Assembly: GCA_010093705.1 (NCBI GenBank)
Contig: MU006106.1
Span: forward strand, 337,086-401,085
Source of the DNA: Patellaria atrata CBS 101060
Lineage: Eukaryota
Direction: 5' to 3'
DNA: 64,000 nt
Positions within the stretch are counted from its first letter, which is position 1, and each line of letters begins with the position of its first letter. The notes beneath the pieces were generated by a model. It had not been told where the DNA came from. It saw nothing but the letters and a program-made list of their open reading frames with translations, and made no database searches. The translations under genes were made by a program, and so were the position numbers. Of this stretch, positions 2,572-47,238 are shown one piece after another.

Positions 2572-2734
2572 GGCCATATGGTCTAGTTGGGGGAGACATC
2601 CGTCGGCGACTCAACTCACCTTTGGTTTCATGTTCGAGTCCCCTGGGCCGCACATTGGTATGGTTTCATAATGCCGTGCGACCACCGCGAAAGCACCGAA
2701 AGGTCGATTGTTTTTCGTTTATTTATTTTTTTTT
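2572..2734 (+). ncRNA. tRNA-derived (Val-like 5' end) Pol III element with intact A/B boxes, 3' hairpins and oligo-T tract; tRNA pseudogene, SINE or ncRNA
   Basis: A box TGGTCTAGTTGG 2579-2590 in tRNA register (T8, A14, G18G19); D stem GTCT/AGAC; B box GTTCGAGTCC 2632-2641; T-runs 2711-2734. Anticodon and T stems do not pair. Confidence 0.55.
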
Positions 2735-3528
2735 ACTGCGGTATTTAATTTGACCTACGTCCTTCAGTGGAGTTCGTTTTGTGTCAGCGTCTAGGAATTC
2801 TCTTTTTGTTTCTTGCCATCATCTCAATCACTTATCACTACTTAGACTTGACCTCTGATTTCTCTTTCGCCGCCATGATATCCACTCCAATGGATAACCA
2901 AAATCAAACGGTTCTCCACAAAGATTTTAGGGTTACGTCCAATGAAGCCTGACCACAACAGTGAGATGTTACTAGATTTCGAAGAGAGACGAACGCTGTG
3001 TTCCTATTCTAGTTCTTGTAGTCCCCCGTATCCAGTCACTCACTGCACACACAGAGTAAAATAAATCATATTACATCTATGGTTTGAGAGCAAAGATGAC
3101 TCCACTCCGTGTCACGCGGCGGTACTATCTCCTCAAACTTGTAGAACAGAAAAATAGAGGGAGGCTCTAGGATGAGGTCTGATCAAAGAAGGCGCTAAAA
3201 ATTTAACCATATCCCCACCTCGGCAAGTAGCGGTGCAACACGCGCTTCCTCTCCATCCCCTTGCTCTTATCAATCACCACCACTATCGAACTGGCCAACC
3301 TTGTACGAGATTCCCCTGCGAGCACGCAATTCGAGGTCTATGTTACACTACAGGCTATCAGACTATCGGCTTATCTGTTGTCGTTACAATGAAGATATAC
3401 TGTACTGGATATACAAGATATCTCTCCCGCATGGGAGCATTAAGCCTCGAATGCTTCCATCGCTGGAGAAATACGGTAACTAGGTAACATTTTATACTGT
3501 CTTCACATTTTTTAAGTCTATCTTCATC

Positions 3529-4778
3529 ATGGCACCAGTTCTTACAGCAGACACCCCTCAAACTCCTCACACGCTTTCAAATAACCATGCGCCCAAGAAC
3601 ATCTTTCCAGACGGTATCAGAACGTCTGGGCAACATAATCCTATATATGAGGAGCTGAAGCCGTATTCAGAGTTTCCTAAAGAGATAACAGGACCGACCG
3701 TCTGGGAAACTGAAGACTATAAAGACAATCCCGAAAGATGGACACATCCCTTTGACGAAGAGGAGATTGAAGAGTTGTCAAAAGCCGCTGATGCTTACTT
3801 AGCGTCAAAAGCTCCACTAACTGCTATATCCAAGGCATGTATACTCGGTATAACTCTCGCCCCAGCAGATATCCTAACTCAACCCAGGAGAACTTTCCTC
3901 TCCCCAAGCTCACCCCCTTCCTCACCTCCACCCGCAACGAACTCCTGAACGGCAAAGGCTTCCTGCTCTTTAAAAACTTCCCCGTCAAAGTCTGGGGCAT
4001 CCGCAAATCAGCCGTTGCGTACATGGGCCTGGGGACCTACTTTGGCTACTACGTCTCGCAAAACGGGCTCGGTCACATCCTAGGCCACGTTAAAGATCTC
4101 GGAGACGACCCGACTCAGACCGACAAAGTGCGCATCTACCGTACCAACGCGCGACAGTTCTTCCACGCCGACGACACTGATATAGTCGGCTTGCTTTGCA
4201 TCGCCAAAGCGCAAGAGGGAGGGGAAAGCGACATCGTATCCTCCCATCACGTCTTCAACACTCTGCAGCGCGAGCGCCCGGATGTTACCGAGCTGCTCAC
4301 GAAGCCGATCTGGTACTTCGACCGCAAAGGCGAGATGAGCAAGGGCCAGGAAGAGTGGATCAGGAGCGCCATCTTCTTCCTCGAGACCGGCGAGAACCCG
4401 CGCGTGTACACGAAATTTGACCCCTATTTCGTGCGTTCTCTGTCCCGTTTCTCGGACAAGGGCGTCGTCCCGCCGCTCTCACGTGAGCAGGATGAGGCGA
4501 TCCAGGTGCTGGAAGAGACCTGCTTGCGGCTCGCACTGCACATGATCTTGGATATTGGGGATATACAATTCCTTTCCAATGCGCACGTGCTGCATGCTAG
4601 GACGGCGTACACAGATTACCCACCCCCGGCGCTGCGAAGACAGCTTATGAGGTTGTGGTTGAGCACACCGGAGGATGAAGGTGGTTGGAGGTTGCCGTTT
4701 CATGATAGTAGGGAGAAGAAGCGGGGTGGGATTCAGGTGGATGACACGCCGCCGCATGCGCCTGGGGATGCGGAGTAG
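3529..4778 (+). CDS. TauD/TfdA-family (clavaminate synthase-like) 2-oxoglutarate/Fe(II) dioxygenase; one intron 3835-3887 (GC-AG)
   Basis: ORFs 3529-3948 and 3837-4778 join in phase 0. HxD motif FFHADD, distal HARTAY and RLWL motif. Confidence 0.9.
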
Positions 4779-5143
4779 ATCAGATAAATAAAGAATAGAC
4801 AGAGAAAATGTGTTCGTGATCTGTTGGCCCAACGCTCTATTTATAATAGGGTAAGCTTTTAGTGTTGAGTCTAAGTCTAGGGTAAAAAAACCCAATGATG
4901 ACTTAGGGCTGATGACTTTGATATATTTCATTATACTTCACAAACAACGCCTTCCGGTAGCAATCCCATTAGAGATCACGTTCGATCAACTGTTCCAATA
5001 GCTCGTCTAAGGCATCCCATCTTGACTCCACAAATTTGGCATTTCCTGGATGGATCAATGTTACATCCACCAACTTGCCGCCCACAGAGCCGTGATATAT
5101 CTTCCAATCCAGGATTTCATACGTACAACAGTAAGAAGATCCT

Positions 5144-5866
5144 CTAGAACCCGCGCCCTCGTCCTCTGCCCCGGCCTCTTCCCCTGCCTCTTCCTCCGCC
5201 CCTCGGACCCCCCCTGGCGCCGCCGCGATCCGCCTGTTCCTTCCTAGCTTTATTCTTCGGTTTTGGCGCATCGTCGATAAGTAGAGTGTCGAGCGGGAGA
5301 CTATCTGGTAAGATATAGTATCTGATCGTGTTGCCACGGACGCTGATGCTATCGAGCGCGACCGGATCGCGGTTCTTGAGGATCATTTTGACGGCGCGCA
5401 GAGATGTATTCATTTGGGGAGTTACTGATGTGATCGTGCCGTGAATAATGGTACCTGTTCGTGTGTTAGTAAGGGCTTTATGCGTTGTAAGACGAGTTTT
5501 GGGGACATGGTTGAACGAGTGGGCCAGTGGAAAATCCATGTGCTGAGCTGATGGACCAAAAATAGAGGCGACCCCGGTCGAGTGAGGAAAATCTGCGTGG
5601 CGGGCCTGTTGTCATGGTCCTTTGCCAGAGCTGGACATCCAAAGTCGAAATGATTTTGTTCGGTGTAAATATGGGAAAAGACGGAAAGCGACTAACCATT
5701 TTTCAACTCAATGGAAACAGTCTCATTCTGACACTTCATCAAAAACCTACAGTTGGAGCAACCTCGTTAGCTGGTACTCGCCAGTGGGTGAAGCCTTGAT
5801 GGTGGAAGAGCTCAGCTTGTGCGTTGGCCTTGAGAGCTTAGGGTGAGCTTACCTGACGAGCTTCAT
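5144..5866 (-). CDS. SMD1: Small nuclear ribonucleoprotein Sm D1; exons 5866-5853, 5746-5697, 5454-5144
   Basis: Spliced product [32 protein letters not shown]...[25 protein letters not shown] with an RG-repeat tail. Confidence 0.96.
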
Positions 5867-6777
5867 CTCTGCGACTCAGTTGCTGAATTAACTTGGCCCT
5901 TTTTTATGTTTGTAGTCGGTTGTGCGTTGAAGAAATTGTTGATCATATGTTAGAGTTGATATCGAGGTCGCGTATCATTGTGGTTGGAACTTGGGTGAAA
6001 TTTACATATCAGAAGGTGCCAAGGCTACTAGCTCAAGCACCAGAGACGCATTAAGGTTATTAGTTATGTAATATACGCAGAGGACCCATCCAACGGGGAT
6101 GCTGGAGATTGTTACTAATAATACTTTGTTGGTAAAACGCCGTGTACACATTTTTCACTCGGAGTGCTGATATCAACCACTGTAGCATATCCCTCCCCTC
6201 TCAGTATATTCGACATAGAAGTAGCCTCACTTTCTCCGCAATAGTTACCTATTTGATACCGACGCATTATACATTCTTGGGTATGGTCAGGTTATAAGAA
6301 AAGATGATAGCCATGGCTGCAATATAACTCCTCCCATCTCAGATGAATTGCATTTAGAATGTGTGGAATGGGAGCAACTTGACTGCATGCGCAAGCATAT
6401 ACCACATCTAAAATCTTCATACATACAGTTCCGGAAGGGTCAAGCCCAGGGTGGGAAATAAAAAGACGGACGAAGGATTCCTGTCGCATGCTATCGGTAT
6501 AATTGTGAATCTGGATATGTGGAGGTGCATCCCCTCACACGTAATCATGGAAAATAATACTGGGGATATGGACTCACGAGTCCGCGGCCATAACGTGATA
6601 GTTTGGCATATTTCCCGTCTATTAAGCCGTGCGAAATATATCATTAAAGATTTGTTTTTGTTCATTTTCCTCAACTGAACAATTTCAAATCTCACATAAC
6701 CCCAATCAAGTTCCAAATAAAAGCTCCATAGATATATACATAAACACTTCTCTTCTTGTGTATGAGTAGTTCCTCAT

Positions 6778-7259
6778 TTAATCCGTTGTATTCTCAGGTA
6801 CCACTGCAAAAGTTGGTCTCACAAATCTATATTCTCGTTAGCAACATTATCAGTTCTAAGTCGACTGAAACGTACCGGTCGCTATGATAAACCTTCGTCT
6901 CTGCTCCCAAAAGCTCCCTTTCTCTCGCTTTATCTGCTAACATTCTCCTTACTTGATCTCTGTCCTCTTCGGCCTGTAGGGCGGGAATTAGGTGAATGCG
7001 ACTCCACATCTTTTCACGGCCTAATTCGCTGTAGTTCTGTCAGCAATGTATTCTCGACCGCTGTTAGTGTATAGCCGGTGATTAGATTCCCATTTACATA
7101 CTTGAGTTCTCTCACACCCTTCCCATATTTGTAGAAGCCGTATGTCATGATCCCGGCAACAGCGAGGAGATAGTAAGCAGGTCGGAAGCCTCGAGCCGGC
7201 AGATTGCGTTTATACTGGATTGGTTCATAGCCGCCCACTGGCGGCATATCTTGAGGCAT
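6778..7259 (-). CDS. NDUFA13: NADH:ubiquinone oxidoreductase subunit A13 (GRIM-19/B16.6); exons 7259-7102, 7028-6876, 6826-6778
   Basis: MPQDMPPVGGYEPIQYKRNLPARG...REKMWSRIHLIPALQAEEDRD...VYHSDRFVRPTF; canonical splice sites. Confidence 0.93.
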
Positions 7260-7453
7260 CCTGAAGATTATCAACTGGATTCAATGGGAGCGTATGTATG
7301 GAATTGCTGAGTTAGAGCGCTGTAGGTCGAGATGTGAGGTTACAGCAGCTTGTCACGGCTGAATTTCGGGTAAACTCAACTCTGCGCCTTCAGATACGAG
7401 TAAATCTTTTCTTGTTAGGTTACATTTCAACCTTCAACACACCACCGCAAATT

Positions 7454-8752
7454 ATGGAGTTAGAGGAACGGCCCAATAAATTGAGAAAATTAAGTCATGA
7501 GAGTGATGGGATAGGCTGGAACGGATCTATGGCCCCTGAATGCGACCCTTCCAGATTTCATGGATCGATAAGCGCAGAGGGGAATCTAGTAGCTAAAGAT
7601 ATTCCCAGTTCAATTGATCTAGCGAAGGTACTAAATGATCCTCAGTGTGATACCCCGAATATTCAAACCGCTAGCGGACTGGACCCCTCCGTAGATGCCC
7701 GTGATGCTGAAAATATTGGCAACGATTCTGTTCATGATGAGCGCAGCCAAGATCCTGATGCTGAAGATGTTCAGAAGCTCTCCAAGAACCAGTTGAAGAA
7801 ATTAAAGAAGAAGCGAGAATGGGAAGAGGGCCGTGAAGCAAGAAAGGCCAAACGGAAGGAAAAAATCAAAGGGAAAAAGGAACGTAAGCGTGAAGCCAAA
7901 GAACAGGCCATTGCAGATGGCACATACGTGGAGCCTACACCTAAGAGGATCCATGGGAATATTCAGGTCCCAATCACGTTCATCTTTGATTGTGATTTCG
8001 AGGACTTGATGCATCCATCTGAGCTCATCTCACTCGCGAGTCAATTAACCAGGGCCTATTCTGATAACAGGAATGCTAAGTACTCCGCGCATCTGGCCGT
8101 GAGCTCTTTCGGGGGTAAGATGAAGGAGAGATTTGATGGTATTCTCGCTGGACATTATGAATCCTGGAAAAATGTCAAATTTTACTCAGAAGATTTCGTT
8201 CAGGTAGCTGAAAAGTCAAAAGCCATTATGACTTCTAAAAATGGTGGTGTCATACGCGGTAGTCTACAACGGGCGAAAAGAGATGGCGGAGAAGGCTCAT
8301 CCGAAGCGGAATCAGAGCTCATATATCTTTCAAGTGATAGCGATTACACTTTGACGGAACTGAAACCCTATACTTGCTATGTCATTGGTGGTCTCGTCGA
8401 TAGAAACAGGCACAAAGGCATATGCTACAAGCGCGCGATGGATAGGGATATCAAAACCGCTAAGCTCCCCATCGGCGAATATATGGAGATGAACAGCAGA
8501 TCTGTGCTCACGACTAATCACGTATCCGAGATTATGCTTAAGTGGCTTGAACTAGGGGACTGGGGAGATGCGTTCATTCAAGTCATCCCTAAGAGAAAAG
8601 GTGGCGCCTTGAAAGGTAAATGCGAAAATGAGAGCTCGGCCGAAGAAGATATCCAACATTCAGATAATGAGAAGGTGCTGGTTGAGCAGGACAACTCTAT
8701 GGATGTAATAAACCCCACAAAGATGGCTGCAGTGAAAGAACCATTAGAGTGA
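7454..8752 (+). CDS. TRM10: tRNA (guanine(9)-N1)-methyltransferase
   Basis: Motifs LSKNQLKKL, DCDFEDLM, IYLSSDS, YVIGGLVDRNRHKG, AKLPIGEY, VLTTNHV, VIPKRK; first ATG at 7454. Confidence 0.95.
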   Translation: MELEERPNKLRKLSHESDGIGWNGSMAPECDPSRFHGSISAEGNLVAKDIPSSIDLAKVLNDPQCDTPNIQTASGLDPSVDARDAENIGNDSVHDERSQDPDAEDVQKLSKNQLKKLKKKREWEEGREARKAKRKEKIKGKKERKREAKEQAIADGTYVEPTPKRIHGNIQVPITFIFDCDFEDLMHPSELISLASQLTRAYSDNRNAKYSAHLAVSSFGGKMKERFDGILAGHYESWKNVKFYSEDFVQVAEKSKAIMTSKNGGVIRGSLQRAKRDGGEGSSEAESELIYLSSDSDYTLTELKPYTCYVIGGLVDRNRHKGICYKRAMDRDIKTAKLPIGEYMEMNSRSVLTTNHVSEIMLKWLELGDWGDAFIQVIPKRKGGALKGKCENESSAEEDIQHSDNEKVLVEQDNSMDVINPTKMAAVKEPLE

Positions 8753-9093
8753 ATCTAAGAAGAGACACGACAGACAAAATTTGCGGGGCTATCTTAAGAC
8801 CTCTAATTAGGTCTCGAAAGAGGAATACAATGTAAATATGAAAGCTATATATTCTTACATGTGATTGTTCTGATTCCATATATGCGGATCAAGGGATCAG
8901 CCCTGCGTAAATAAGCCTTTTAGCGCCCGCTACAAGCTGGGGTATTTGAGCCGCAATACCTTCCCTCCTTGTAACGTCTGACGTCTTCTAAAGTCAACAA
9001 TATGTGATAGGGACCAACCTCATGAAGATACGCTTGATGTCAAGTGTACTAACACCTCTAATGTACTTACTAGCTATATAAATACGACGGCGT

Positions 9094-10169
9094 ATGTCAG
9101 ACTCACAAGGACGAGGCTCTCCCGAGCTACCACCTCGCCTCTCGAAATCCTCGTCGTTCGGTGCAGCATCTTTTTTCTCGTATCCAGTATCTCAAACAGT
9201 CTCTGGTCTTCTCCGAAGATTAACTACTGAACCCCCTCCTTCCAAAAGTTTGTCCGTAAAACCGAGCGGATCCAGTATGCACGGCGTCTATACACCCCCC
9301 CATAGGCGTGCATCGCCGTTCCAGCCACCTCCTTTAACTCCTCTAACCCTTAAAGGGTACAAATTCAATACATCAGATTCCGCGAAATTACTATCCAGAT
9401 CCTTAGCAGAAGAAATCAGACTACTGATTCCGCCACGGTTACAATTGGTCGAAGACTGGCACTTGGCTTACAGCTTGGAACAAAATGGTGTTAGTCTCTC
9501 TACATTATATAAAATGGTTGAGGATTACCGAGGCAAGAGAGGAGGGTTTGTTCTCGTGGTGAGGGATGGATCGAGAGGTGTAAGTTGTCCTACGACCGTC
9601 GCCGTTCTTCACCTGTTAGCAACATATCACTAAGATTAATTTGGCAGCTCTTCGGTGCATACCTCAGCGACCCTCCCCACCCTCAACCGCACTTTTTCGG
9701 TACAGGGGAATGCTTTTTATGGCGTGCGCATATACTCCCCGATATTCCAGACCTGTCATCTCTTCCACGTCCCCCTTCAGAAGATACCACTCATGCACAG
9801 CGTCAAACTACTCTTGGGATGCTAGATAGCCTAAGCCTACCGACAAGTGGACTAGGAGGAAGTAAAAGTAGCACTCCTACATCCGAGAGAATACGATTCA
9901 AGGCCTTCCCATATAGTGGAGTTAATGATTATATGATATTTTGCGAGCAGGGATTCCTAAGTATTGGAGGAGGGTAAGCGGCTATAACTCTTCCAAGTCA
10001 TGACTTTAGACTAACAGTTTTTAGGGATGGTCGCTATGGACTGTGGTTAGATGATAATTTCGAAAGAGGCGTCTCTTCAACTTGCCCAACGTTTGGAAAT
10101 GAGCCCCTAAGCGACGAGGGAACAAAATTTGAAGTTTTAGGTGTTGAATTATGGTACATCGGTGCATAA
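9094..10169 (+). CDS. OXR1: Oxidation resistance protein 1 (TLDc domain); introns 9580-9647 and 9974-10024
   Basis: Motifs [64 protein letters not shown]. Confidence 0.93.
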
Positions 10170-12595
10170 TTCGGAACGGGTATCATATAAAGGTTTGGCG
10201 TTCTTCAACTCATAAGCTATATACCACAAAGCTGCGGACGTAATTTCGGTTAGGTACTCTTCACTCCAATATCACGAAAATCTGATTAGTCAACTGGATA
10301 ACAAGGGCCAAATTCACAGCTTACCGGATGATGAATGCTCCACCTATCTGCAATCAATTGATTGGAAGCATAATGGTCGTGCGAACCTGTGGAACTAGCT
10401 TTTCGACGTACGCTTGACCATCAAGCAAGTGAAGCAGCTCACGGACTAGACGCAGCAATAGTCTTTACAATTTCAGATGCCCTTTTGTCGCTTTAGCGGG
10501 TGACCTATTTACTCGGTAGCTTCGTGCTGGCTGAATTTTAAATCTAGGCGAGTGTAGGGAGACGTCAATTTGACGTATTGTCATCTAGCATACCCAAACC
10601 GTCGAGTGCTTCGATGACATTACAGCGGAGAATGATTCAATTGAGACGGATAGGAGATTCCACATCTCTTCGTTCCGAAACAGGTTGTTGCTCTAAGCTA
10701 GGCAGTCTGGGAATAAGAGGTTTTTCATCGAAAGGTGTGTAAGGTCAGCTTCTAATATCCGGATTAACCACTGTAACGTTGTTTGAACAGTGATGGAATA
10801 GGTGACACCACAACCGTAGCGTCTTACCTGGTTGATCGTACAACCGCTGATACAGGGATTACCTAGGAGCATGGTCATAGAGGCGTGGCGCTTTCTTGCG
10901 CCATAAGGTAGGCGAACCAGGCTATCGGTATCGGGCAAATTTCTATGCTAATATGATAGCTGGAATAAGCGTTATCGCGGATCTGCATAGTCTTATCATA
11001 ACGAACACATCGAGTCTGCATTGTGACTTCTAGGCTGCACTGCAACTCATTCAGCGACGAAGACAACTTCTCACTGTGACTGATAGTGCTCAAGTATCAA
11101 CTCTCATGCCAAAGTTGGTTTGATCGTGTTTCTGCTTGAATACAGCAACCTCAAGATGGAGTCTCGGATTGTGACCCTTTATGCTATCTGGATGAATAGA
11201 GCCGTCAACAAGACAACCTAGAATGTCAGTGGGAAGACTTGAATTCAACGAATGAGAGCATGGTGTAGTTTTGGCCAACACAACAGGAAATGGGACACTG
11301 TTGTTTAAGAACAATAGGGCTTTTGGAGTGATAAGACATCTGAAGTTGCAGAAGGTCTACTGAAATAATGCATCATTCGGTAAAAAAAATTGCATATGTT
11401 GAAATGACTTTGACGCAAGTGCAGCTTCGCCAGCGCATCTGGGGTTGCGAAGACTTTGACTTTGCAACGTCCCTGGTTGTTGGGGTCCAGTTTTAGATGG
11501 CCACACACGTGTCAGGATGGTGTGGAGTTCCCTCAGACGTAGTATTGGCTCAAATTCGCCAGAATTAGAAGATATCAGGGTCCGCAGCTCACTTCAAAGA
11601 AATAATTTTAGAGAAATTTTTGCGATTGCTAAATTGTCAGGGAGGTCGTACGCAATCCAGGAGTCAGCCTTGCAGTAATAATGGCGTCCGTTTCAGTCAT
11701 TTCTAGATGGATTCTCCGCAAAGAAGGGACTGCCCGTCACTCGTTTAGATCACGACGGGAGTTCTATTATCTCTAAGAGAAGTAGGATACCAAATACACA
11801 ATTTTCACCGCAGTATCGTACAACGATGAGCGTAGGTCGGGTTCAAGTGAAGACGGGAGTGCTAAGGTATGGCAGTGCGCTTGACGTGCCACGTTCACGC
11901 CACAGACACCATTCTTCTTCCGGTAACTTACCCCCGGAACCGGTGCCATAACCTCACTCCATACCTGCACAATTTCATGTTACCAACAATAAACAATTCC
12001 GCAACAGCTTCAAGCAAAATAAACAAATTTCTTTCCTCACCAGTCAGGCAGCCATTTCCAAATTCTTGTCGTTTGGAATGGCCCTACCGGTATCAGTACG
12101 TCCCGTCAGGATAGCATTGATTGGCCTTCTGCATTGCAACACGAAGGCATCGCTCTTCACACAGATGCTCCCTGAATGGACTCCGTACGCGAATATCTTA
12201 TGATTTCTCTCGAGCATGAGGGTCGGCCCGCTTGCGGGGAGAGCGAAGCGTTCTGCTTGGTGGATATGCGGCCGCATACCTCGACCTTCACACATTCACC
12301 AGTGATTCGAATGTATCAATCTCAGCTTACATTTTGACATTCCCTGTCCCTTTACGGCGCAAATTATCAACGTGAAACTGTGCAGGTAGCCTGTCAGATT
12401 ATTGCGATTACGATTCTGTTTGGTCTGGAATCTGAATTCTTTGGAACATTAAGTTGATAAGTCTAGCCCTACAGCCTGTGCAGATGGATCCCAAACCGAC
12501 CCTAAGCAAAGGGTTCCCTGTCCATCCTCATTCTCAACTTGGACACTCTCTTGCTTTCTTTCTTCATTTCATGAAATTCTTCAATCGATGCACAT

Positions 12596-14030: not shown

Positions 14031-15026
14031 TCAAGCGACAATCTCCTGCTCGCTAACCTGTACCCCCTTTAACTTCTCCAATCTCTCAAGCTCTTTTTTC
14101 TTCATCTCTTCCATAATCCTCACCCTCTCTGGAACAATCCTCTGTCTTCCTCCCTTGATCTTCCAACCAGCCAACCTGTCCTTACCCAACGCATTCAACG
14201 TCTTCCTCTCTACCAAACTATAATTCCCATCCTCTCTATCAAAGTTGAAATTCTCCCTCAGACTCACGGGTGGATTCGTGATAACCCTCACCCTCCTCAA
14301 CGGATTCTTACTAGCCGAATGCAACATCAACGGATGCAGTAAATACACATCCCCCACCTTCCCCGTCGCCTCAACAAACCCAGAACACGACCTCGCCACC
14401 TCACAAAACCACCTCAAATCCTTCTCCCTCGCAAACTCTGGATCCCTCTTCAAACTCATCCTCGGACTCACCCCCTCCGGATGCTTCTCCAGATGCTTCG
14501 CCACCTTCGCAATCCCCTCCGGACAAATCGCCGTCCCGCCCCCGCCGGACACGATATCAGTGAACAGCGGAATAACCAGCAAGCCCTGTTCCGCCGAGTC
14601 CAAAAAATGCACGAAAAAATCCCCGTCGACGTGCCACCCCTCCAGATTCCGCATACTCTCCTGCCGCTGCTCCTCCGTCTCCGGCACACCCTCTTGCTCC
14701 TGCTCCGCGGTGCCCAGGTTCACGATCAGCGCGTCCCGCCACTCGGCGAACTCGGGGGATATCTTGTCCTCGCCGCCGAGGAGGTCGCAGATCGCGGCCC
14801 AGGCTTTGGGAGCGAAGGTCGCGGCGCTGAAGGAGGTGTGGAAGGGCATGTTGGTGCGTTCGGTCGTCCAGGTCGTTTTGTCGTGGGGGTCCATGCCGAG
14901 GCGGGTCCAGAGGTTTGCGGTCACGGCGTCGGCTTGGGATTGGGTGAAGCAGGCGGGGATTTTGATGTAGCCGTGGTGGAGGAAGTGGTCGACGTCCTCT
15001 TGGGTGAGCTGTTTGTAGGGCGGCAT
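14031..15026 (-). CDS. Phytanoyl-CoA dioxygenase (PhyH)-like Fe(II)/2OG-fold protein
   Basis: Intronless 331-aa ORF with LTQEDVDHFLHHGYIKI, WHVDGD (HxD), GGGT and GDVYLLHPLMLHSAS. Confidence 0.78.
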   Translation of the reverse strand: MPPYKQLTQEDVDHFLHHGYIKIPACFTQSQADAVTANLWTRLGMDPHDKTTWTTERTNMPFHTSFSAATFAPKAWAAICDLLGGEDKISPEFAEWRDALIVNLGTAEQEQEGVPETEEQRQESMRNLEGWHVDGDFFVHFLDSAEQGLLVIPLFTDIVSGGGGTAICPEGIAKVAKHLEKHPEGVSPRMSLKRDPEFAREKDLRWFCEVARSCSGFVEATGKVGDVYLLHPLMLHSASKNPLRRVRVITNPPVSLRENFNFDREDGNYSLVERKTLNALGKDRLAGWKIKGGRQRIVPERVRIMEEMKKKELERLEKLKGVQVSEQEIVA

Positions 15027-35045: not shown

Positions 35046-35053
35046 CACGTGGG
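35046..35053 (+). promoter_or_regulatory. Pho4/NUC-1/PalcA-type bHLH site upstream of PHO84
   Basis: CACGTGGG about 860 bp upstream of the ATG; another CACGTGC at 33796-33802. Confidence 0.5.
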
Positions 35054-38500: not shown

Positions 38501-39792
38501 TCACTCCCACTCGACACTCCAAGTCCCCTGNNNNNNNNNNNNNNNNNNNNNNNNNNNNNNNNNNNNNNNNNNNNNNNNNNNNNNNNNNNNNNNNNNNNNN
38601 NNNNNNNNNNNNNNNNNNNNNNNNNNNNNNNNNNNNNNNNNNNNNNNNNNNNNNNNNNNNNNNNNNNNNNNNNNNNNNNNCCTCCTCACCTCCTCCTCCC
38701 CAACTACACCCCTCTCACACGCCTCCCCCAGCGCATCCAGCACAAGCGGGACAACATACGGCTGGGTAAATACCCCCGCAGCGACCCTCCTCGCCGTCTT
38801 CGCAACAAGCGGATGCGGCGCGGAATCGCTGCCCAGAAAAAACTTAGGGGACCCGGACACAGCGGTGCGGAGCAGGGCGTCTCTATCCCTGGGGGTCTTT
38901 GCGACAGGTTTGCAGAAACAGATAGAATCGGCGGCCCAGTCGTCCACGACGAGGCTCAAATGATGCGGTGTCACGGTGCCCGCTACAGTTGGGCCGCACT
39001 CGCGCACCGCGGCGACGGCGGCGGCGGTGGAGCAGTGCTCCAGCACGATCCTCAGCCGCGGGAAGGTGGCGTGCAAGAGGTGCAGCGTCGGCAGGAACTT
39101 TTCCTCCGCGTTTAGGACCGTGATGGCGCCGCCGGAGGGACATTCGCCGTGCAGGTTCAGCACGAGGCCTTGGCGTTCCATTTCTGCGAAGACGGGGAAG
39201 AAGGAGGTGTAGTCTGTCACGCCGGCGGAAGATTGGGTTGTCACGTTTGCGGGGTAGGATTTTATTCCTACGATGCCGGCGGCGGCGGCGGCGATGATGG
39301 TGGAGGGGGTTGTGGTGGCGTGCAGGAAGAGGGTCATTAGGAATGTTATGTCGGGGGCGAGGGATTGGAGGCGGACGCGGTAGGCGAGGGCTTGTTCGAC
39401 TGTGGTGATTGGGGGGTTGAGGTTGGGCTGTTGGGTTTAGGGTATGAGTATGGTTTGATGAATAGGGGGGGTTATGGTATGGGAAAGGGAAGAGATAGGG
39501 GGGTTACCATGACGTAGACGGTGTTTACACCTCCTTTGCCTTTATGGTTTGTTAGTATGGATCTTTGGTATCATCTGCTTTTCTTGTTTCTTTTTTGTTC
39601 TTATTTTCTATTTCTTTTGGTGAGAGAGGGCTCTTACGGATGGTTGGTGTGACGAGCTCCATCATTGCTCTATCCCTGAGATGAACTGTAGGAGTACATT
39701 AACATTGTGCTCATTCTATTTGAAGCTAGCTTCATACCATGAAAGTCTGCGGGAGCCGCGATTCTGGCTCCTTCGAGATGCTCTAACACCAT
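38501..39792 (-). CDS. URA4: Dihydroorotase (homodimeric type); 4 or more exons, with a gap in the last exon
   Basis: DFHVHLR, VYVMPNL, KSYPANVTT, LNLHGE, IVLEHCST, FCKPVAK, FFLGSDSAPH, AAGVFT. Confidence 0.93.
38531..38680. other. Assembly gap (N run)
   Basis: Run of n characters within the 3' part of URA4. Confidence 1.
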
Positions 39793-40420
39793 ACTGTGAG
39801 GTGTCTATTCTGTTCCGTATGCACGCAACTTCAAACAATTTGGGTGAGGCTTTTCGAAAGACTGGAGTTTCTAACCCGTATATGTAAATCCTTAATTATA
39901 TTAGCCAATTAAGTTCTTTTAATAGTGTTATAGTTGGGCTGGAAGGATTGAGGTTTGATTTTGCAGATAGCTGGAAGCTCTAAGCGACATCGCAACATCT
40001 GTTTGGTCCAACCCCTTTAGTTCTACACCCGATAAAAGGTCAAGGGATATCGTTTGAATATAAGAGGTAATGTATCAAGACGATTGAATTGCATGGTTGG
40101 GATTCTACGTATACAATGACTTGTAGTGATTCATAGAAAAGATATAATTCTATAGGATATACCCAAATATTCCGCTAACTGTTACACTAATCGTACAGGA
40201 TATGACATAGAGGTACGGTATAAAGGAGTAACAGAAAACAGTTAAAAGCCGCATACTGGTCCAAAAAGTATAGAAGACTGTTCTAACCCAAACCTTTTGC
40301 GAATATTGCGCCGACCGATGCAGTGAGAGTAGAATGCAATGCGCCCGATACCCTATACACCAAACACTTCTAATCAAAAGCGTAAAACCCTTTTTTAAGG
40401 TGCAGCAAAGGTAGTGACCT

Positions 40421-41866
40421 CTACTCGTGCTGTGAGCGAGATTCTCTCCTTTCATTCATGCCACCCGCCATCTTTTTCCCTATCTCATAACTGCTGATCA
40501 TGATTGCGCAGGCGGGTGCAACTTTTAAGCATCTGGCTGCCCATCCCTTAAACAAACCAGACATGCCCTCTTCTTTCAAGATATGCCATAAGAATCGTGG
40601 CATTGCGAGATCTTCAGGTCGAAAAAAGTTTGCATTGGATACTTGCTGACTTGAATGCTTAGCGATCTGCTGACGTGTCTTGCCCACATCAAATGGAGTT
40701 GTGACGAGCGCTGCTACCGCTCCTGATGCTGCTCCCGCAATAAAAGAATCGACGAGGGTAGCGGTGGTATTTTCTTTTTCTCTACTTCTTGATCGGGACC
40801 TCCGGTCATCTCGCACACTAACACTGTCACGCCTGCCCCTTGATCTTTCCCGTACATCGGTGAGGACGTCCCGTCCACTTTCATATCCCCACCAGTAGAT
40901 AGCGGAGAACGGAACATCTCTCCATAAGGTAAGATTCAAGCCTCGCCAAAGACTTCTATAACCTTCAACTCCTACCATTTCCCTCAAACCATGTAATGTC
41001 TCTCTGAAGTGACCGGTCGGTCCGCTTGCGTGGTGGGCTGCTTGCATCCGGGTCCTGAACATCTCGATTGGCGAAACAGCTATGGCTGCGAGAATCCTAG
41101 CAAAAGATCCGGCAACAAGAGGTGCATATGCGTCATGGATTTTGAAAACTCCATGTGTGAGAGGGGAGGTCCGAGAAGTTCTCAACCAGTCGTATCCCGC
41201 GAAGTAAATGACATTTGCAGGAATAGCCATGACCAGGGTGGGAGATAAACCTCGCCACAATGTTCGCGGTCCTTCATTGCGCGCTATCTTACGGAGGCCG
41301 TCAAACGTGCTTGTGAAATTTTTCCTTTGCACTTCCTCTGCAGCACATGCGTCCAGAGCAGCAGTGGAAGAAGGTATTGAGGGAGAGGCAACACAGTATG
41401 GAGCATTATTATTGACCCAAAACACTTCGCGACAACATGCGGATATACCAAGATTGGGTGGGAGATTCGAGAATGATGAAACACCAGCAAGGTTGGTCGG
41501 TGATGGACGATGGGAGGGAGTAGATTGCGATTGTAGACGGACACGGACAACATCGAGCGGTGTAACTGTAAATATAGTTGTAAGACTTTGACTGTACCGC
41601 ACCTCGAGGAAATATAATTGAAGAGAGCAGGAGTATGTACCTAGTAAAGAAGTGAGGACACTCCCGGTAACTGCAGACAGCATCTTTTGTGTCATAGAGA
41701 TAGCCAGACCTGGATCTGTCTCATCGTCATCGCTTGGAGCCATCGTGGGTCCTATCTGATCGCGAGTGTGGTGTATCCTGTCGTGTCGTTGGCCACCGAG
41801 TTCTCCTCTTCTACCTTGCGGCAACTCGGGGTCTTCCGAGTCTTTCTCAAGAGAGGCGAATGGCAT
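40421..41866 (-). CDS. MTM1: Mitochondrial carrier Mtm1 (SLC25A39/40 family); in-frame intron 41640-41566
   Basis: Three PxD/ExxK/RxR signatures (TPLDVVRVRLQ, SPIEMFRTRMQ, TPFDVGKTRQQ), LWRDVPFSAIYW, KVAPACAIMISSYE. Confidence 0.92.
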   Translation of the reverse strand: MPFASLEKDSEDPELPQGRRGELGGQRHDRIHHTRDQIGPTMAPSDDDETDPGLAISMTQKMLSAVTGSVLTSLLGTYSCSLQLYFLEVRYSQSLTTIFTVTPLDVVRVRLQSQSTPSHRPSPTNLAGVSSFSNLPPNLGISACCREVFWVNNNAPYCVASPSIPSSTAALDACAAEEVQRKNFTSTFDGLRKIARNEGPRTLWRGLSPTLVMAIPANVIYFAGYDWLRTSRTSPLTHGVFKIHDAYAPLVAGSFARILAAIAVSPIEMFRTRMQAAHHASGPTGHFRETLHGLREMVGVEGYRSLWRGLNLTLWRDVPFSAIYWWGYESGRDVLTDVRERSRGRRDSVSVRDDRRSRSRSREKENTTATLVDSFIAGAASGAVAALVTTPFDVGKTRQQIAKHSSQQVSNANFFRPEDLAMPRFLWHILKEEGMSGLFKGWAARCLKVAPACAIMISSYEIGKKMAGGMNERRESRSQHE

Positions 41867-43529
41867 ATTGAGAGGTCCCCTCGCGCCGATTGATACAGGT
41901 TTTTATTTAAGGGAGTAATTGTCACCGTTCACGGTGCATTTTTGATGAGATGTGGAAAAGATAAGGGAGTGGTGACGGTAGTGATGGGCACATTCTATTT
42001 AGTGACGGAAGCTTCCACAGGCTCTAAACTTTTGTTCTTTGCGGAAATCGGGCGCGGTTCGGAGCTCTTCGGAGGTGACGTTACCGCCACAGCCGCCAAC
42101 TCTCGGTTAGACCCGGAGCAATCTAATCAGATTTAATCACTTTCTACCTAAGGAGAAAGAGAAATCTATTTCACTCTGGTTCTCAACAACGGAATAACCC
42201 TCATCATCTTCTACCCAGATCATCAAATCCAGCATCTTTGTATATTCATATATCTTTCGACGGCCAGACATTGATGGTGAGCGTACAGTGAGTGTATGGT
42301 GCTAGTATGGCTCGATAGTGCTGGCGACTGTTTGCCTACTTCCAGATACACCGCGACACATCCATTACTTAAGAGGTCTCGGAAGCCAATTTCTTTCATA
42401 CATACTCCGAATTGTTTCGTTAATTTATGAGGGGAGTTTGAGGTGCGAAGAGGTGAGGAGGCGCTACAGTGTCAAGCCACTATACGAAATTTTATATACG
42501 AAGTTTTTGACTGAGCGAGCATGAATTTTGCCATTTTTCAAATTGGACGGACGCGCATTATAAGCCATACAGTACCGTACAAAATCTTCTACCATCCGCC
42601 TCGCCCATTCAAAAGTGAATGACTGTAGCCGTACGGCAAAAAGCCCATTTATAGGCTGTAGCCTAAAGAGCCGATCAAAAACTGTACTGATATGTTGACG
42701 TACAGCCAGACCTAAACCCGTGCATGAATTGGGCAAGGCAGTCTGTACACCAACATGTAAGTCGGGCAGCCCTTTGTTTCTGCTGCGTCCGACGAAATCT
42801 GTGCTCGTGGAACAATTCCTTTTTGAGCCTTCTGCATAGAGCTCTAACAGTCGAGCGAATCAAATTGTGTAGAAGACCTATTTATCCACCCACTCAGAGA
42901 TCAAAGTATTCCATATCAAACACCTCATACTTCATGGTACCCGAAAAGACGTCCAGATACCTCCCTATTACAACTCGGACATACCAGATGCAAGTCATAT
43001 TGCATTCGAAGTAAGAAACAGAAGAGAATTACTTGAGTAGGGGCGTCTTGGTCTATATAAGCTAATGAAAAGCTGTTGGTATGAGCATCAAGGGGACTTA
43101 CTCTGGAATAACATGTTATCATGGAGAGCTGATACTGTTCTCGAGATTTTGTGACACTGTACAGTACCTCTTAATGATGCCGTTATTTTTGTCTCTTCGA
43201 AATATTCCTGAGAATAATACTATTGAAGATATGGACTCATGAGAGAGCTACACTATAACGGTCAAAGAAAAAAGACGGTAAGTATGTTTCGACTCCTTTT
43301 CAGCAGCGACTTGTCTATCTATATACGCTCTTTTCACCCTTTTAAGTTATCCGTGGTTCTGGTCAAACCAATCAAAAGGCTACCCGTGAGAACTCCTGGA
43401 CCACATCTCGAACTCTATTAAAGCATTGTCCCAAACAAACTCTAGCGCACACGCGCTTGGTAATAGATATATCAGCTTGGTAAAGCCGACTTCCAGAGGA
43501 ATCCGGGGGTCCGACATATATGATAGTGG

Positions 43530-44260
43530 ATAGGATATGATAGTAGCACCTCCTGGTACAAATTCAATCGAGATCTCGTTAAACTTTCAAAGCAGCTATC
43601 CGAAAGGAATTTCGTCACATAGATGCAGCAGATTCCTACAGCACTGAGGAGGAAGTAAGCATTGATATAAAGAAATCCGGAATTGCGAGAGAAGAGCTCT
43701 TCATCATTACCAAAGTACTTAATGAGTTGATAACGTTCCGACTGCATTTGAGCAGAGCTTCAAGAAACTTCAAGTGAAATATGTGGACCTGTGAGTGATA
43801 TGTTAGTCCAAACCGTCTCACTAGGTGCTACTAACATTGCTATACCTCAGTTATCTGGGCCATCCTCCCTATGCCCCCAAGGCACCTGCAGATCTGCAGA
43901 GCGATTGGTTGGAGATGGAAAAGCTCAAGAAAGCCGGAAACGCAAAGTCAATCCGCGTTTCTAACCATTTAAGGGAGCATTTGGAGACCATTCTCGAAGT
44001 GGTCACGATAAAACCCGCAATGAACTAGATCCATTTCCATCCATACCTTCAACGTGCGAATCGCTCCTTGCCTTGAATAAGAGTATGGCATCGAGGTAGC
44101 CAGTTTCAGCGGTGTGACACCCATAACCACAGCTAAAGGCAGCCTACTATATGAGCCCTTGTCCAATATCGCGGTGAAGCGCGGAGCCACGGAGGCTGCG
44201 GTATGGATAAAGTGTCAACTTCAGCAAAATGTGTTTCAGTCGTTAATATGGAACTCCCAC
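43530..44260 (+). pseudogene. Aldo-keto reductase pseudogene
   Basis: Fragments FRHIDAADSYSTEEEV, SGIAREELFIITKV, KLQVKYVDL/YLGH, KAGNAKSIRVSNH, KPAMN*IHFHPYLQ; frameshifts near 43595 and 43730 and an in-frame TAG at 44026-44028. Confidence 0.85.
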
Positions 44261-44554
44261 CAGAAGGGAACCAAGAGATCACGGCGGTTGGATTAACCTG
44301 TCATTTCAGAGCCCAGGATGATCGATCCTGAGAGGGCATCTCTTCCAGCAGGAAATGTCACAGCTATCTGCTAGCATTCTGAGGTTAGTTTACTTTATGA
44401 TTATTCTCGAGAGACTGCGATCGGACTTGAATACGTAAGGTACCTTCTGTAAAGAAACACGGGCTCACTCCAGCTCAGTCTTTTAATCTCCCGTTTCCCT
44501 ACTCGATGCCCCTCCATATGTTACTCTTTTGTGAGATGACCCGGAAATCCGAAC

Positions 44555-44751
44555 AGGCATTTAGTCTAGTGGTACGATCAATGCCTAATGCTGCTCCTGG
44601 TTTGCCTTCTGGGTCGATTCCCAGATGTGCCGGGTTGGAAGTTTCCTACTCCTGACCACAAAGCCCCACATACTCCCTCAGGGACCTGACGGTAGCGCTG
44701 TTAAGCAAGTATACCGTCACTGGACTGTCTGTTATTTTTTTTCGTTTTTTT
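44555..44751 (+). ncRNA. tRNA-derived (Pro/Gly-like D arm) Pol III element with a 3' hairpin extension and oligo-T tract; SINE-like or ncRNA
   Basis: A box TAGTCTAGTGG 44562-44572; T arm CTGGG-TCGATT-CCCAG 44609-44624; GGCA/TGCC acceptor remnant; hairpin TGACGGTA/TACCGTCA; T8 at 44735-44742. Confidence 0.55.
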
Positions 44752-45223
44752 ATTTCCCATCCTTAGTAAGGTATAGTACTCATGCCTACTAGTACACCAA
44801 GTACTTATCGTGTAGTCCTACCTTATCCTTATCCGAGTTACAATCTTGATGGGAGAGGTACTACCTACGGACGGGAAGATATCTTGAGGTTTAGCAAGGA
44901 AGGAACTACTATAGGGTTGGTAGTGAGATTCCACTTTGGTAGTTTTATACTAGCTTTATGGTTAATCTCCGGATCCCGTAGGCCAATCTAATCTGATCTT
45001 ATCCTCGATAATCTTGCATCGGTGATCTTACTTTACTCAATCCGACACACCGCGGACAAACTAAGACTGTACACATCGTCCTGTACAGTCATAACTCTAG
45101 ATTTCAGGATTGTATATAAACACCTGTATCTACATTAAAACCTTTATCATAGAACGACTGAAGATCTCCGGAAATACTAACCTATAGAATAATACTCTCC
45201 CTCAAGTATCTCAAAAACACACA

Positions 45224-46777
45224 ATGGAACAACGACAACAACAGACGGAAGCAGAACTTGAGCAATTCAGAGCCCAATGGCGAAAAGAAGTCGAGGCTCG
45301 CTCCAAGGGAAAGCAATCCGCATCTCAAACCACCAAAGAACCCGAAGCAGGGCCCTCAAATCCCAAAACCCCAAAGCCGCAGAAGAACACCCCAGCGCCA
45401 CTCACCTCCGCCACCGTACCCGGGGGACCCCATGACAGAGAAAGAGATGAACTCGAAGGTCGCGTCTATCAAGACCTAGAACCCGGAGATCGAGGACGTC
45501 GTCTCGATGACACCGGCCCCTCGAACCCAAAGGAGCCCGGCTCCGCCCTCGAGCACTACGAAGCCGCCGTGGAGCGCGAGCGCGAAGGCAATCTCGGAGA
45601 CAGCGTCCGACTCTACCGGCGCGCCTTCAAGATCGACGCCGACGTCCACGAAGCATACAAGAGCAAGCAATTCCCAACCGCGCTGTACAAGCCACCTATG
45701 CCGAATCCCAACCCGTCCAACGCCCCCGTCACGGTGCCGAATCCAGCACACCACTCCCCAGACGGGCTCTCTGGTCTCCTCGCTTCCTTCGCGCAGCTGA
45801 GCATACCGCCCGAGCCAGCGCCGACCGAACTCTCGGCCCCGTTTCCTTGTCCCATCTCCACGCTCCCGGAGGAGCTCCTAGTCGAGATCCTGCTGCAGGT
45901 GGCTCTCGACGATGTTGGGGTCTTCGCGCGCCTCTCCCGCGTCTGTCGCCGCCTGGCCTACCTCGTCGCGACCGAAGACCGGATCTGGAAGCGGCTCTGC
46001 CTTGGCGTCGAAGTCGGGTTCGCAGGCATGCACTACGACTTCGTGGTGGACACCAAAGGGGAACCCCTGGACCTCTCAACACCCCTCACATCACCAGACG
46101 ACACCTTGCTCCCTCCCCCCTCATCCCTCGAAGCCCGTCTCGCAACCACGGCCCAGACGACCCCAAAGCTGATCCCACGCCCCTACCCATCCTACGCCCA
46201 TCTCCTCCGTGCCCGCCCCCGCATCCGCTTCTCCGGCGTCTACATAAGCACCGTGAACTACATCCGCCCTGGCGCTGCTTCCGCGAGCCAATACACGTGG
46301 AACTCTTCGCCCGTGCTCATCGTGACCTATTACCGATACCTACGCTTCTTCCGCGACGGTTCCGTAATCTCTCTGCTCACGACCGCCGAGCCCGCCGACG
46401 TCGTCACCCATCTGTGGAAGGAGAACATGCCCCTGAACGAGGACGAGGGGGGGAAGAAGCGGGAGCGCACGGACCGCCCATCCGCGCTGCCGAACGCGCA
46501 GGTCATGAAAGAGGCGCTGCCGGGACGGTGGCGGCTTGAGGGTCCGGGGGAGGGGGAGGGCATGTTGCATGTGGAGACGGAAGGCGTGGTGCCGAAGTAT
46601 ATGTATAAGATGGTGTTTGGGCTCGCGACGGCGGGAAGGGGGAGCAGGAATAATAAGCTCGCGTGGAAGGGGTATTGGAGCTATAATCGGTTGACGGATG
46701 ATTGGGCGGAGTTTGGGTTAAAGAATGATAAGGGGTTTTATTTCTCGAGGGTTAGGAGTTATGGGAAGGGGGTTTAG
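45224..46777 (+). CDS. HRT3: F-box protein Hrt3/Pof7 (FBXO9 family)
   Basis: ELEQFRAQWRKEV, ALEHYEAAVEREREGNLGDSVRLYRRAFK, F-box LPEELLVEIL, RPRIRFSGVYISTVNYIRPG, VTYYRYLRFFRDG. Confidence 0.92.
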   Translation: MEQRQQQTEAELEQFRAQWRKEVEARSKGKQSASQTTKEPEAGPSNPKTPKPQKNTPAPLTSATVPGGPHDRERDELEGRVYQDLEPGDRGRRLDDTGPSNPKEPGSALEHYEAAVEREREGNLGDSVRLYRRAFKIDADVHEAYKSKQFPTALYKPPMPNPNPSNAPVTVPNPAHHSPDGLSGLLASFAQLSIPPEPAPTELSAPFPCPISTLPEELLVEILLQVALDDVGVFARLSRVCRRLAYLVATEDRIWKRLCLGVEVGFAGMHYDFVVDTKGEPLDLSTPLTSPDDTLLPPPSSLEARLATTAQTTPKLIPRPYPSYAHLLRARPRIRFSGVYISTVNYIRPGAASASQYTWNSSPVLIVTYYRYLRFFRDGSVISLLTTAEPADVVTHLWKENMPLNEDEGGKKRERTDRPSALPNAQVMKEALPGRWRLEGPGEGEGMLHVETEGVVPKYMYKMVFGLATAGRGSRNNKLAWKGYWSYNRLTDDWAEFGLKNDKGFYFSRVRSYGKGV

Positions 46778-47142
46778 GTGGCGGGGGTGGTGGGAGTGTA
46801 AGTTAGGAATATAAGGTAGATGGAGATGGTGGATGAACACTATATTTTAAGACTCGACCACCAGCGACGTCGATACGTTAATAATAAAGCCCTACCTTGA
46901 AACATGAAATACAGATAAATTACCAGAAATACCAGATGAAATAGTACAAAGTCCACTATTAACAGCTACCCAAACTCCCATAACCATAAATACAATCCCT
47001 CACCTTCGTTCCTCGAACTACAGCAAGACAGCACCGATTATCCCTTTCCATAAACTATAGTAGTATCTTAGGTAATCAAGGTATACCACATCCCATGAAC
47101 CCTCCATAGACCTCATAGACACCCCCAACCCTTCCTTCTCCC

Positions 47143-47238
47143 ATCGAACCCGATCCCCTGTGGCTGAGTAGGCAGGTACCTCGTCTACCTGCAGTGCCGT
47201 CACTCCTGACTTATCAAAGTCACTCGGGTTCGATTTTT
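47143..47238 (+). other. Compact multi-stem inverted-repeat element with A-box-like and B-box-like motifs
   Basis: Perfect 11-bp IR ATCGAACCCGA (47143-47153)/TCGGGTTCGAT (47224-47234) enclosing GCAGGTA/TACCTGC and TGACTT/AAGTCA hairpins, followed by T5. Confidence 0.55.

What the first reader, a model, noticed from the sequence alone, without database searches (positions are those of the whole stretch)
2572..47238. Possible family of dispersed, non-cloverleaf tRNA-promoter (Pol III) RNA units
Seen: four intergenic loci (2572+, ~15410-, 44555+, 47143+) each carry an A-box-like and a B-box-like motif about 50-66 nt apart, resembling different tRNA types. None folds into a full cloverleaf. Three have extra strong hairpins and end in oligo-T, and two end in a similar T-run/CG/T-run tail. 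They do not resemble each other in sequence, so they are not recent copies of one SINE. Established: A+B boxes form the TFIIIC type-2 promoter and T4+ terminates Pol III. Inference: keeping promoter, terminator and new stems while losing tRNA structure suggests exapted tRNA-derived ncRNAs, ancient SINEs or TFIIIC boundary sites; four in 64 kb would imply many genome-wide. This is my best candidate for an undescribed system here, but it rests on short motifs.
Basis: partly seen in the sequence, partly recalled or inferred. Interest (0 to 1): 0.7.

Follow-up and report, generated by a model that had tools for sequence, protein, structure and literature searches.

The report
tRNA-derived small-RNA gene families in fungus
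Three of the four flagged spots are real tRNA-style promoter units, each a copy of its own small gene family scattered through this fungal genome and apparently spread together with flanking DNA, but nothing yet shows that they are transcribed or what they do.

Summary
Loci 1 (2562+), 3 (44545+) and 4 (47143+) carry tRNA-grade A boxes, good B boxes and oligo-T ends. Three such units are seen against 0.01-0.04 in shuffles. They are not one family. Locus 1 has 4 full copies in the genome, locus 4 has 15, locus 3 has one divergent paralogue. None forms a cloverleaf or matches Rfam. Locus 2 has a weak B box, no terminator and one copy: at best a tRNA-Leu relic. Locus 4's family was copied with flanks (up to about 130 nt upstream, 400 downstream), keeps a TATA-like word at -46, and shows no target-site duplication or LINE-like tail. 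That fits DNA-level duplication, as for primate snaR genes, better than SINE retroposition. Its 32-nt core is three- to fourfold more conserved than flanks, with a few compensatory pairs. A blind 600-kb sample suggests about 100 (12-345) such units genome-wide, not the roughly 1,800 the window implies. No RNA data or related genomes were available. The scan has already noted such units on other DNA of this genome, mostly as SINEs. Verdict: real, lineage-specific Pol III-type gene families; function unproven.

The parts
2531..2538 (+). Locus 1 upstream TATA-like element (-48 from the A box)
   Evidence: ATAT at -45/-47 in 5 of 5 family copies that have a 5' end
2562..2734 (+). Locus 1 unit (family F1): predicted start 2562, tRNA-like head, GNRA-loop 3' module, T-runs 2711-2715 and 2726-2734; predicted RNA about 150 nt
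   Evidence: 4 full copies at 90-92% to the query, 1 5' part, 2 3' parts; homology mostly starts 15-18 nt before the A box
2579..2590 (+). Locus 1 A box
   Evidence: 12.7 bits
2631..2641 (+). Locus 1 B box
   Evidence: 14.1 bits
15339..15415 (-). Locus 2: A box 15410-15400, weak B-like 15349-15339, tRNA-Leu-like head; no terminator; single copy; probable relic. Lies between a rhodopsin-domain gene (stop 15560) and an ATG at 15026
44545..44750 (+). Locus 3 unit (family F3): predicted RNA about 195 nt; 5' and 3' ends predicted to pair; T-runs from 44735
   Evidence: one paralogue (L010, G000:C16)
44562..44572 (+). Locus 3 A box
   Evidence: 11.7 bits
44611..44621 (+). Locus 3 B-box-like T-arm hairpin (one T short)
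   Evidence: 11.9 bits
44583..44594 (+). Locus 3 block shared with the paralogue; complementary to 44694-44706
44694..44706 (+). Locus 3 second block, identical (13 nt) in the otherwise unalignable paralogue body
47113..47119 (+). Locus 4 upstream TATA-like word (-48 here; -43 to -48 in 14 of 15 copies)
47143..47238 (+). Locus 4 unit (family F4, 15 copies): predicted RNA about 92 nt; terminal stem 47143-47153 with 47224-47234; A box 47161-47172; B box 47227-47237 running into T-run 47234-47238
47168..47199 (+). Conserved F4 core: end of the A box plus a 7-bp hairpin with a 7-nt loop
   Evidence: at most 2 mismatches in 15 of 15 copies; split test
47534..47626 (+). Downstream flank still homologous (80%) to the flank of another F4 copy (L013), about 300-390 nt beyond the terminator

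Best explanation
Loci 1, 3 and 4 are members of three separate, low-copy, lineage-specific families of tRNA-derived RNA polymerase III genes: an upstream TATA-like word, internal A and B boxes, a non-tRNA body and an oligo-T terminator. SHOWN: boxes, terminators, copy numbers, loss of cloverleaf, co-duplicated flanks, and uneven conservation in F4. FROM ESTABLISHED Pol III BIOLOGY (recalled): TFIIIC binds A/B, places TFIIIB/TBP on the upstream TATA, and Pol III starts about 17 nt before the A box and stops at the T-run, giving RNAs of about 150, 195 and 92 nt. INFERRED: the families spread mainly by DNA-level duplication with variable flanks and birth-and-death, like snaR genes. The F4 RNA (and probably F3) is sealed by a 5'-3' stem that would make it stable, and its conserved inner hairpin is most likely a protein-binding site, making it a small regulatory or decoy RNP. 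Locus 2 is a dead relic of a tRNA-Leu-like sequence.
For: Tripartite signal far above shuffles. Families of 4, 2 and 15 copies. F4 flanks homologous to about 130 nt upstream of the start and about 400 nt past the terminator, with variable ends; all 6 hits of an upstream-flank query sit in front of a core. F1 pair L001/L004 shares about 80 nt upstream. TATA-like word at fixed spacing in 14 of 15 F4 and 5 of 5 F1 copies. No target-site duplication beyond 4-8 nt in 17 units with a T-run. No tail homology to 10 LINE-like and 15 other RT loci. F4 core window chosen on 9 copies and tested on the 6 flank-found copies: 5/192 changes against 31/336 in the rest of the transcript (p 0.0035) and 43/442 upstream (p 0.0016). 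Covariation score 0.182 against 0.155, 2 of 500 shuffles; 6 pairs change on both sides. F3 paralogues keep two complementary blocks amid unalignable sequence, and a fold pairing them costs only 0.4 and 4.5 kcal/mol.
Against: No expression evidence and no related genome. The whole F4 transcript is not more conserved than its upstream flank (42/576 against 43/442, p 0.17). Copies are related, so p values are optimistic, and the covariation tool warns that 5-25% of null alignments pass similarly; pairs with both-side changes reach only 31/500. Several F4 copies have damaged boxes, and helix 4 is only 72% paired. Locus 1 folds no better than shuffles (z 0.16). F3 end pairing is weak: 2/500 and 24/500 shuffles, a cross-paralogue duplex is as strong as a self duplex, and 36/300 and 31/300 in a narrower test. 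A strict TATA match in a fixed window is found in only 4 of 19 units against 17 of 30 tRNAs. Most F1 copies begin at the predicted start and two are 3' parts only, which retroposition would also give.
Confidence: 0.55

Rival explanations
1. T-tailed tRNA-derived SINEs: retroposed copies of Pol III transcripts, mobilised by a LINE, with no host function.
For: tRNA head plus unrelated body; dispersed copies 73-92% identical. F1 homology mostly runs from the predicted start to the T-run, and two copies hold only the 3' part. The genome has many RT matches, some of LINE-like length. Low-copy, T-ending AfuSINE2 elements are described in Aspergillus (PMC5063351).
Against: F4 flanks upstream of the start and far past the terminator are co-duplicated, which a Pol III transcript cannot carry upstream. 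No target-site duplications, no A-rich or tandem tail, no LINE 3' homology in the loci fetched. Uneven conservation in F4.
Confidence: 0.25
2. Neutral relics: tRNA pseudogenes duplicated passively in small segmental duplications, transcribed or not, without function.
For: Locus 2 fits well: Leu-like head, weak B box, no terminator. Whole-transcript against flank conservation is not significant. Locus 1 has no excess structure.
Against: Bodies and 3' modules have no tRNA counterpart. Boxes, TATA-like word and terminator are kept together. F4 core is conserved with compensatory pairs. F3 keeps complementary blocks while the rest is unalignable.
Confidence: 0.12
3. Precursors of microRNA-like RNAs (milRNAs): Pol III hairpin transcripts cut by Dicer or RNase Z, as for Neurospora milR-1 to milR-4.
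For: Neurospora pri-milR-1 is about 170 nt and intergenic; milR-1 to -4 are Pol III-made and T-terminated (PMC3547838). Locus 3 and several F5 copies form long 5'-3' rods.
Against: Locus 4 helices are 5-12 bp; locus 1 has no stable long stem; the heads are not cloverleaves, unlike the intact tRNAs of milR-4.
Confidence: 0.05
4. DNA-level TFIIIC sites acting as chromatin boundaries; any RNA is incidental.
For: All units are intergenic and keep A/B boxes. ETC/COC-type sites exist in yeasts (recalled; the search found no paper).
Against: The best-conserved F4 segment is the inner hairpin, not the B box (9/78 changes against 6/192 in the 6-copy set). Terminator and TATA-like word are kept.
Confidence: 0.03

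Closest known systems
snaR gene family of great apes (PMC3045588; abstract and section 18 read)
   Same: Short, structured Pol III RNA genes, lineage-restricted, spread as duplications that each carry a variable amount of flank rather than by retroposition.
   Different: snaR derives from Alu via ASR and CAS, and is shown expressed and NF90-bound. These are tRNA-derived, fungal, unrelated in sequence and untested for expression.
AfuSINE2 tRNA-related SINE-like sequences of Aspergillus fumigatus (PMC5063351; abstract and first part of section 14 read)
   Same: Fungal, tRNA-related head with Pol III boxes, unrelated body, low copy number (1-5), 140-493 bp.
   Different: AfuSINE2 are described with 4-14 bp target-site duplications and, in one case, a LINE-like repeated tail. 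Here none was found, and flanks including a TATA-like word are co-duplicated.
Neurospora milR-1 to milR-4 loci (PMC3547838; search passages and first part of Results read)
   Same: Intergenic fungal Pol III units with TATA-like elements and T-run terminators; milR-4 is tRNA-linked.
   Different: milR-1 lacks A/B boxes; milR-4 sits with intact tRNA-Ala genes. The units here are multi-copy, and no small-RNA product is shown.
Rodent 4.5SI RNA (PMC3440375; abstract only)
   Same: About 100-nt Pol III RNA of narrow taxonomic range whose complementary ends give stability; F4 has an 11-12 bp end stem.
   Different: Mammalian, proven expressed; no sequence relationship tested or expected.
Nuclear tRNA genes of the same genome (30 examined)
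   Same: A/B box strength, TATA-rich zone about 45-50 nt upstream of the A box, TTTT terminators.
   Different: No cloverleaf, no anticodon arm in register, broken T and acceptor stems.

Membership tests
tRNA gene | Cloverleaf with acceptor, D, anticodon and T arms, with or without one intron | tested here: not met
   ARAGORN 0; no RF00005 hit in the window; 0 of 28,985 deletion variants
Pol III type-2 transcription unit | A box and B box at tRNA-like spacing | tested here: met
   Loci 1, 3 and 4 lie within the tRNA score range; locus 2's B box lies below it
Pol III type-2 transcription unit | Oligo-T terminator downstream | tested here: met
   Met at loci 1, 3, 4; not met at locus 2
Pol III type-2 transcription unit | Transcript or Pol III occupancy | not testable with these tools
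   Only two contig sets, probably DNA, were listed
tRNA-derived SINE | tRNA-related head with A/B boxes plus unrelated body, dispersed copies | tested here: met
tRNA-derived SINE | Target-site duplications | tested here: not met
   Best direct repeats 4-8 nt, 4-5 nt for the window loci; old copies could have lost them
tRNA-derived SINE | Copy boundaries equal the transcript; no shared upstream flank | tested here: not met
   Not met for F4 and for the F1 pair L001/L004; roughly met for the other F1 copies
tRNA-derived SINE | A-rich or tandem-repeat tail, or 3' end shared with a partner LINE | tested here: inconclusive
   Tails are T-runs; no homology to 25 RT-bearing loci, only part of the 78 RT matches
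Known Rfam families (SRP, 5S, U6, RNase P/MRP, snoRNA, vault, Y) | Covariance-model match | tested here: not met
milRNA precursor | Dicer-dependent, Argonaute-bound 19-25 nt products | not testable with these tools
   no small-RNA data
TFIIIC boundary (ETC/COC) site | TFIIIC bound without Pol III; barrier activity | not testable with these tools
   no ChIP data

The most novel reading that the evidence does not exclude
This fungus carries a second Pol III repertoire of roughly the same size as its tRNA set: about 100 non-tRNA genes in at least six tRNA-derived families, amplified by DNA-level birth-and-death. At least some (F4, F3) make stable, end-sealed RNAs with a selected hairpin core and a regulatory role, a fungal counterpart of snaR and 4.5SI RNAs.
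Probability: 0.25. Interest if true: 0.7.

Novelty: new variant of a known kind. Interest (0 to 1): 0.42.

Why it matters
If expressed and selected, these would be lineage-specific Pol III small-RNA families in a filamentous ascomycete, a class known mainly from mammals. They would show how tRNA genes are recycled into new RNAs, and would caution against labelling every tRNA-headed fungal repeat a SINE. The 15-copy F4 family, with a defined 92-nt product and a conserved core, is directly testable by one Northern blot. If they are silent or neutral, they are an ordinary set of small repeats.

Tried and rejected
EXPRESSION: no RNA holder listed. The two runs laid were contigs, probably DNA; they match 43500-48500 without differences and show the F4 core collapsing as a repeat. 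This says nothing about expression. OTHER ORGANISMS: the F4 core pattern gave 1 metagenome hit, inside a GC-rich open frame with no similar surroundings, judged chance. No relatives are held for G000. tRNA HIDDEN BY AN UNUSUAL INTRON (lead from two scan notes): rejected. Rfam: only chance hits. MORE F3 COPIES: 2 further hits of a 12-nt block lacked boxes. LINE PARTNER TAIL: none. A genome-wide count with a covariance model (built) was not obtained; copy numbers rest on BLAST and pattern searches and are lower bounds (a 3-mismatch pattern for the F1 tail returned only 3 of the known copies). MITE reading of F4's terminal inverted repeat: rejected because homology runs past both arms. HDV or hammerhead ribozyme and C/D or H/ACA snoRNA readings were compared by eye with recalled consensus motifs and did not fit. 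A 'sealed 5' end' is not general: significant for F4 and 5 of 7 F5 copies, not for F1, F3, F6, F7 or locus 2.
Full report
SETTING. The window is G000:C18:337086-401085 in a 28.7-Mb, 127-contig assembly. It is a filamentous ascomycete by its genes: a fungal rhodopsin domain and housekeeping families, and Ascomycota as commonest taxon for the Trm10 protein. The four loci are intergenic. The window has no ARAGORN tRNA and no real Rfam match.

ARE THE BOXES REAL? I took the 30 best of 41 RF00005 matches in the genome (39 over the cut-off, a lower bound), all 30 called tRNA by ARAGORN, and built A- and B-box matrices. The tRNAs score A 9.9-14.6 and B 8.0-17.9 bits. Locus 1 scores 12.7/14.1, locus 3 11.7/11.9, locus 4 13.0/10.8 and locus 2 12.0/7.1. 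With a T-run required, the window has 3 units against 0.01-0.04 in 100 local shuffles, none reaching 3; a slightly looser repeat gave 0 in 91, 1 in 7 and 2 in 2 shuffles. Thresholds were chosen after seeing the loci and the window was picked for this feature. A genome-wide strict pattern gave 22 matches against 8 for the reversed control, a mix of true tRNAs and non-tRNA units. No single deletion of 1-90 nt turns any locus into a tRNA (0 of 28,985); the same test on a real intron tRNA gave 1,704 calls.

LOCUS 1 (family F1). Seven matches: the window copy, three more full copies at 90-92%, one 5' part and two 3' parts. Homology usually begins 15-18 nt before the A box, where a Pol III start is expected (recalled), and ends in the T-run. 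One pair also shares about 80 nt upstream (z 9.5). ATAT lies at -45 or -47 in 5 of 5 copies with a 5' end. The RNA folds no better than shuffles (z 0.16; -0.07 to -1.8 across copies). The two 3'-only copies could be truncated retrocopies or decayed genes; this is the best point for the SINE reading.

LOCUS 4 (family F4). Fifteen copies by BLAST and the same number by a 32-nt pattern, with at most 2 mismatches and 0 control hits. The predicted 92-nt RNA folds well (z -3.3): the leader pairs with the B-box region just before the T-run, enclosing two hairpins. Among the 12 copies compared, homology extends well outside the transcript with variable ends: to about 130 nt upstream of the start in one pair, about 200 nt past the terminator in three copies, and about 400 nt between the window copy and L013. 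A query made of upstream flank alone found 6 places, all in front of a core. A TATA-like word lies at -43 to -48 in 14 of 15 copies. A Pol III transcript cannot carry its upstream flank, so I infer DNA-level duplication. For constraint, the most conserved 32 columns were chosen on 9 copies and tested on the 6 flank-found ones: 5/192 changes against 31/336 in the rest of the transcript (p 0.0035) and 43/442 upstream (p 0.0016). Against this, the whole transcript is not more conserved than the flank (p 0.17), the core includes part of the A box, and copies are related. On a hand-set structure, 90.5% of 440 cells pair, 6 pairs show both-side changes (31/500 shuffles) and the covariation score is 0.182 against 0.155 (2/500); the tool warns that relatedness alone can give this. 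This is modest evidence of selection.

LOCUS 3 (family F3). One paralogue, on C16. The two share the first 39 nt at 95%, a short middle block and an identical 13-nt block near the 3' end, with unalignable sequence between. The first and last blocks are complementary; forcing that helix costs 0.4 kcal/mol in the paralogue and 4.5 in the window copy, and both fold with 5' and 3' ends paired. The end pairing is only suggestive: 2/500 and 24/500 shuffles, a cross-paralogue duplex as strong as a self duplex, and not significant in a narrower test.

LOCUS 2. Single copy, weak B box, no T4 in 580 nt, fold z +1.6. Its head aligns to a tRNA-Leu-type gene (L050; identity read from the sequence, ARAGORN mislabels it) with score 35, above all 158 non-tRNA A-box sites in the blind sample (maximum 34). 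With about 17 such sites expected per window this is only suggestive. It is a probable relic, not an intact unit.

HOW MANY GENOME-WIDE? Sixty 10-kb stretches at round coordinates (600 kb) held 5 hits: 2 tRNA genes, 2 convincing units and 1 likely chance hit; shuffles averaged 1.1. That gives about 96 units (95% range 12-345), or 143 (30-419) if the third is counted, against about 1,800 from four per 64 kb. The sample covers the larger contigs only. Units actually seen fall in at least six families: F1 (4 full), F3 (2), F4 (15), a pyrimidine-rich family F5 (7), F6 (2) and a singleton.

SINE TEST. Best direct repeats around 17 units were 4-8 nt. No unit tail matched 10 stretches around LINE-like RT matches or the 15 top RT loci, of 78 RT matches (best E 0.09). 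Tails are T-runs. The TATA signal is weaker than in tRNAs: 4 of 19 units against 17 of 30 tRNAs in a fixed window, background 6%, though exact words cluster at -46/-48 and -38 to -41 by family.

MECHANISM. Most likely (0.55) these are tRNA-derived Pol III genes that lost the cloverleaf but kept promoter and terminator, and multiply by small DNA duplications with birth-and-death. F4 probably makes a stable end-sealed RNA whose conserved hairpin binds a protein; that last step is inference. Rivals: SINEs (0.25, best for F1), neutral relics (0.12, best for locus 2), milRNA precursors (0.05), TFIIIC boundaries (0.03).

WHAT IS KNOWN. snaR genes spread as duplications with variable flank, unlike their retroposing ancestors (PMC3045588, abstract and section 18). 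AfuSINE2 are low-copy fungal tRNA-related elements described with target-site duplications (PMC5063351, abstract and first part of section 14). Neurospora milR-1 to -4 are Pol III-made and T-terminated (PMC3547838, passages and first part of Results). End complementarity stabilises 4.5SI RNA (PMC3440375, abstract only). No supplements were read; the box annotations of the milR loci are in a figure I could not see. Nine searches of the open library (listings only apart from the four papers) showed no description of flank-duplicated tRNA-derived Pol III families in filamentous fungi; subscription papers are not covered. The scan has noted similar units on other pieces of this genome at least eight times, mostly as SINEs; sequence look-ups for loci 1, 3 and 4 returned nothing. 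Those notes may concern other families, so my result against the SINE label holds for F4 and partly F1 only.

VERDICT. A real, moderately interesting class with no proof of expression or function: new variant of a known kind, interest 0.42.

Noticed in passing
L143-L147, L149, L150 (G000 C1, C8, C9, C12, C13): Family F5: at least 7 units with a tRNA-Val-like A box and tandem pyrimidine-rich repeats; in 5 of 7 the A-box region pairs strongly with sequence after the B box (z -2.8 to -6.1), giving long rods, the best milRNA-like candidates seen. Some share 40-80 nt of upstream flank.
   Followed up: partly
L067:7738+ and L142:488+: Family F6: two units of about 170-200 nt, 75% identical from the A box to the T-run, with no flank homology; more SINE-like than F4.
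   Followed up: partly
L073:2434-: Singleton A+B+T unit sharing a 10-nt word with the locus 3 conserved block; relationship not established.
   Followed up: partly
L151:1585-1677 (G000:C18, 1.5 kb past the window end): A true tRNA gene just outside the window, adding to the local density of Pol III units.
   Followed up: partly
L050 (G000:C17:129608-129899): Two tRNA-Leu-type genes in tandem about 80 nt apart.
   Followed up: no
one search matches across G000: 78 reverse-transcriptase matches, most with many TAA/TAG stops, a pattern typical of repeat-induced point mutation (recalled); the short unit families show no such C-to-T excess.
   Followed up: no
L113, L101, L100, L102 upstream flank: A roughly 28-nt tandem duplication in the shared upstream flank of one F4 subfamily.
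   Followed up: no
window 58379-61273 (-): A 964-codon open frame with no Pfam match.
   Followed up: no
window 14031-15026 (-): An intronless 331-aa open frame with no Pfam match just downstream of locus 2.
   Followed up: no
window 47250-47287: A mixed T-run and 15-nt A-run after locus 4 that the other F4 copies lack in this form.
   Followed up: no
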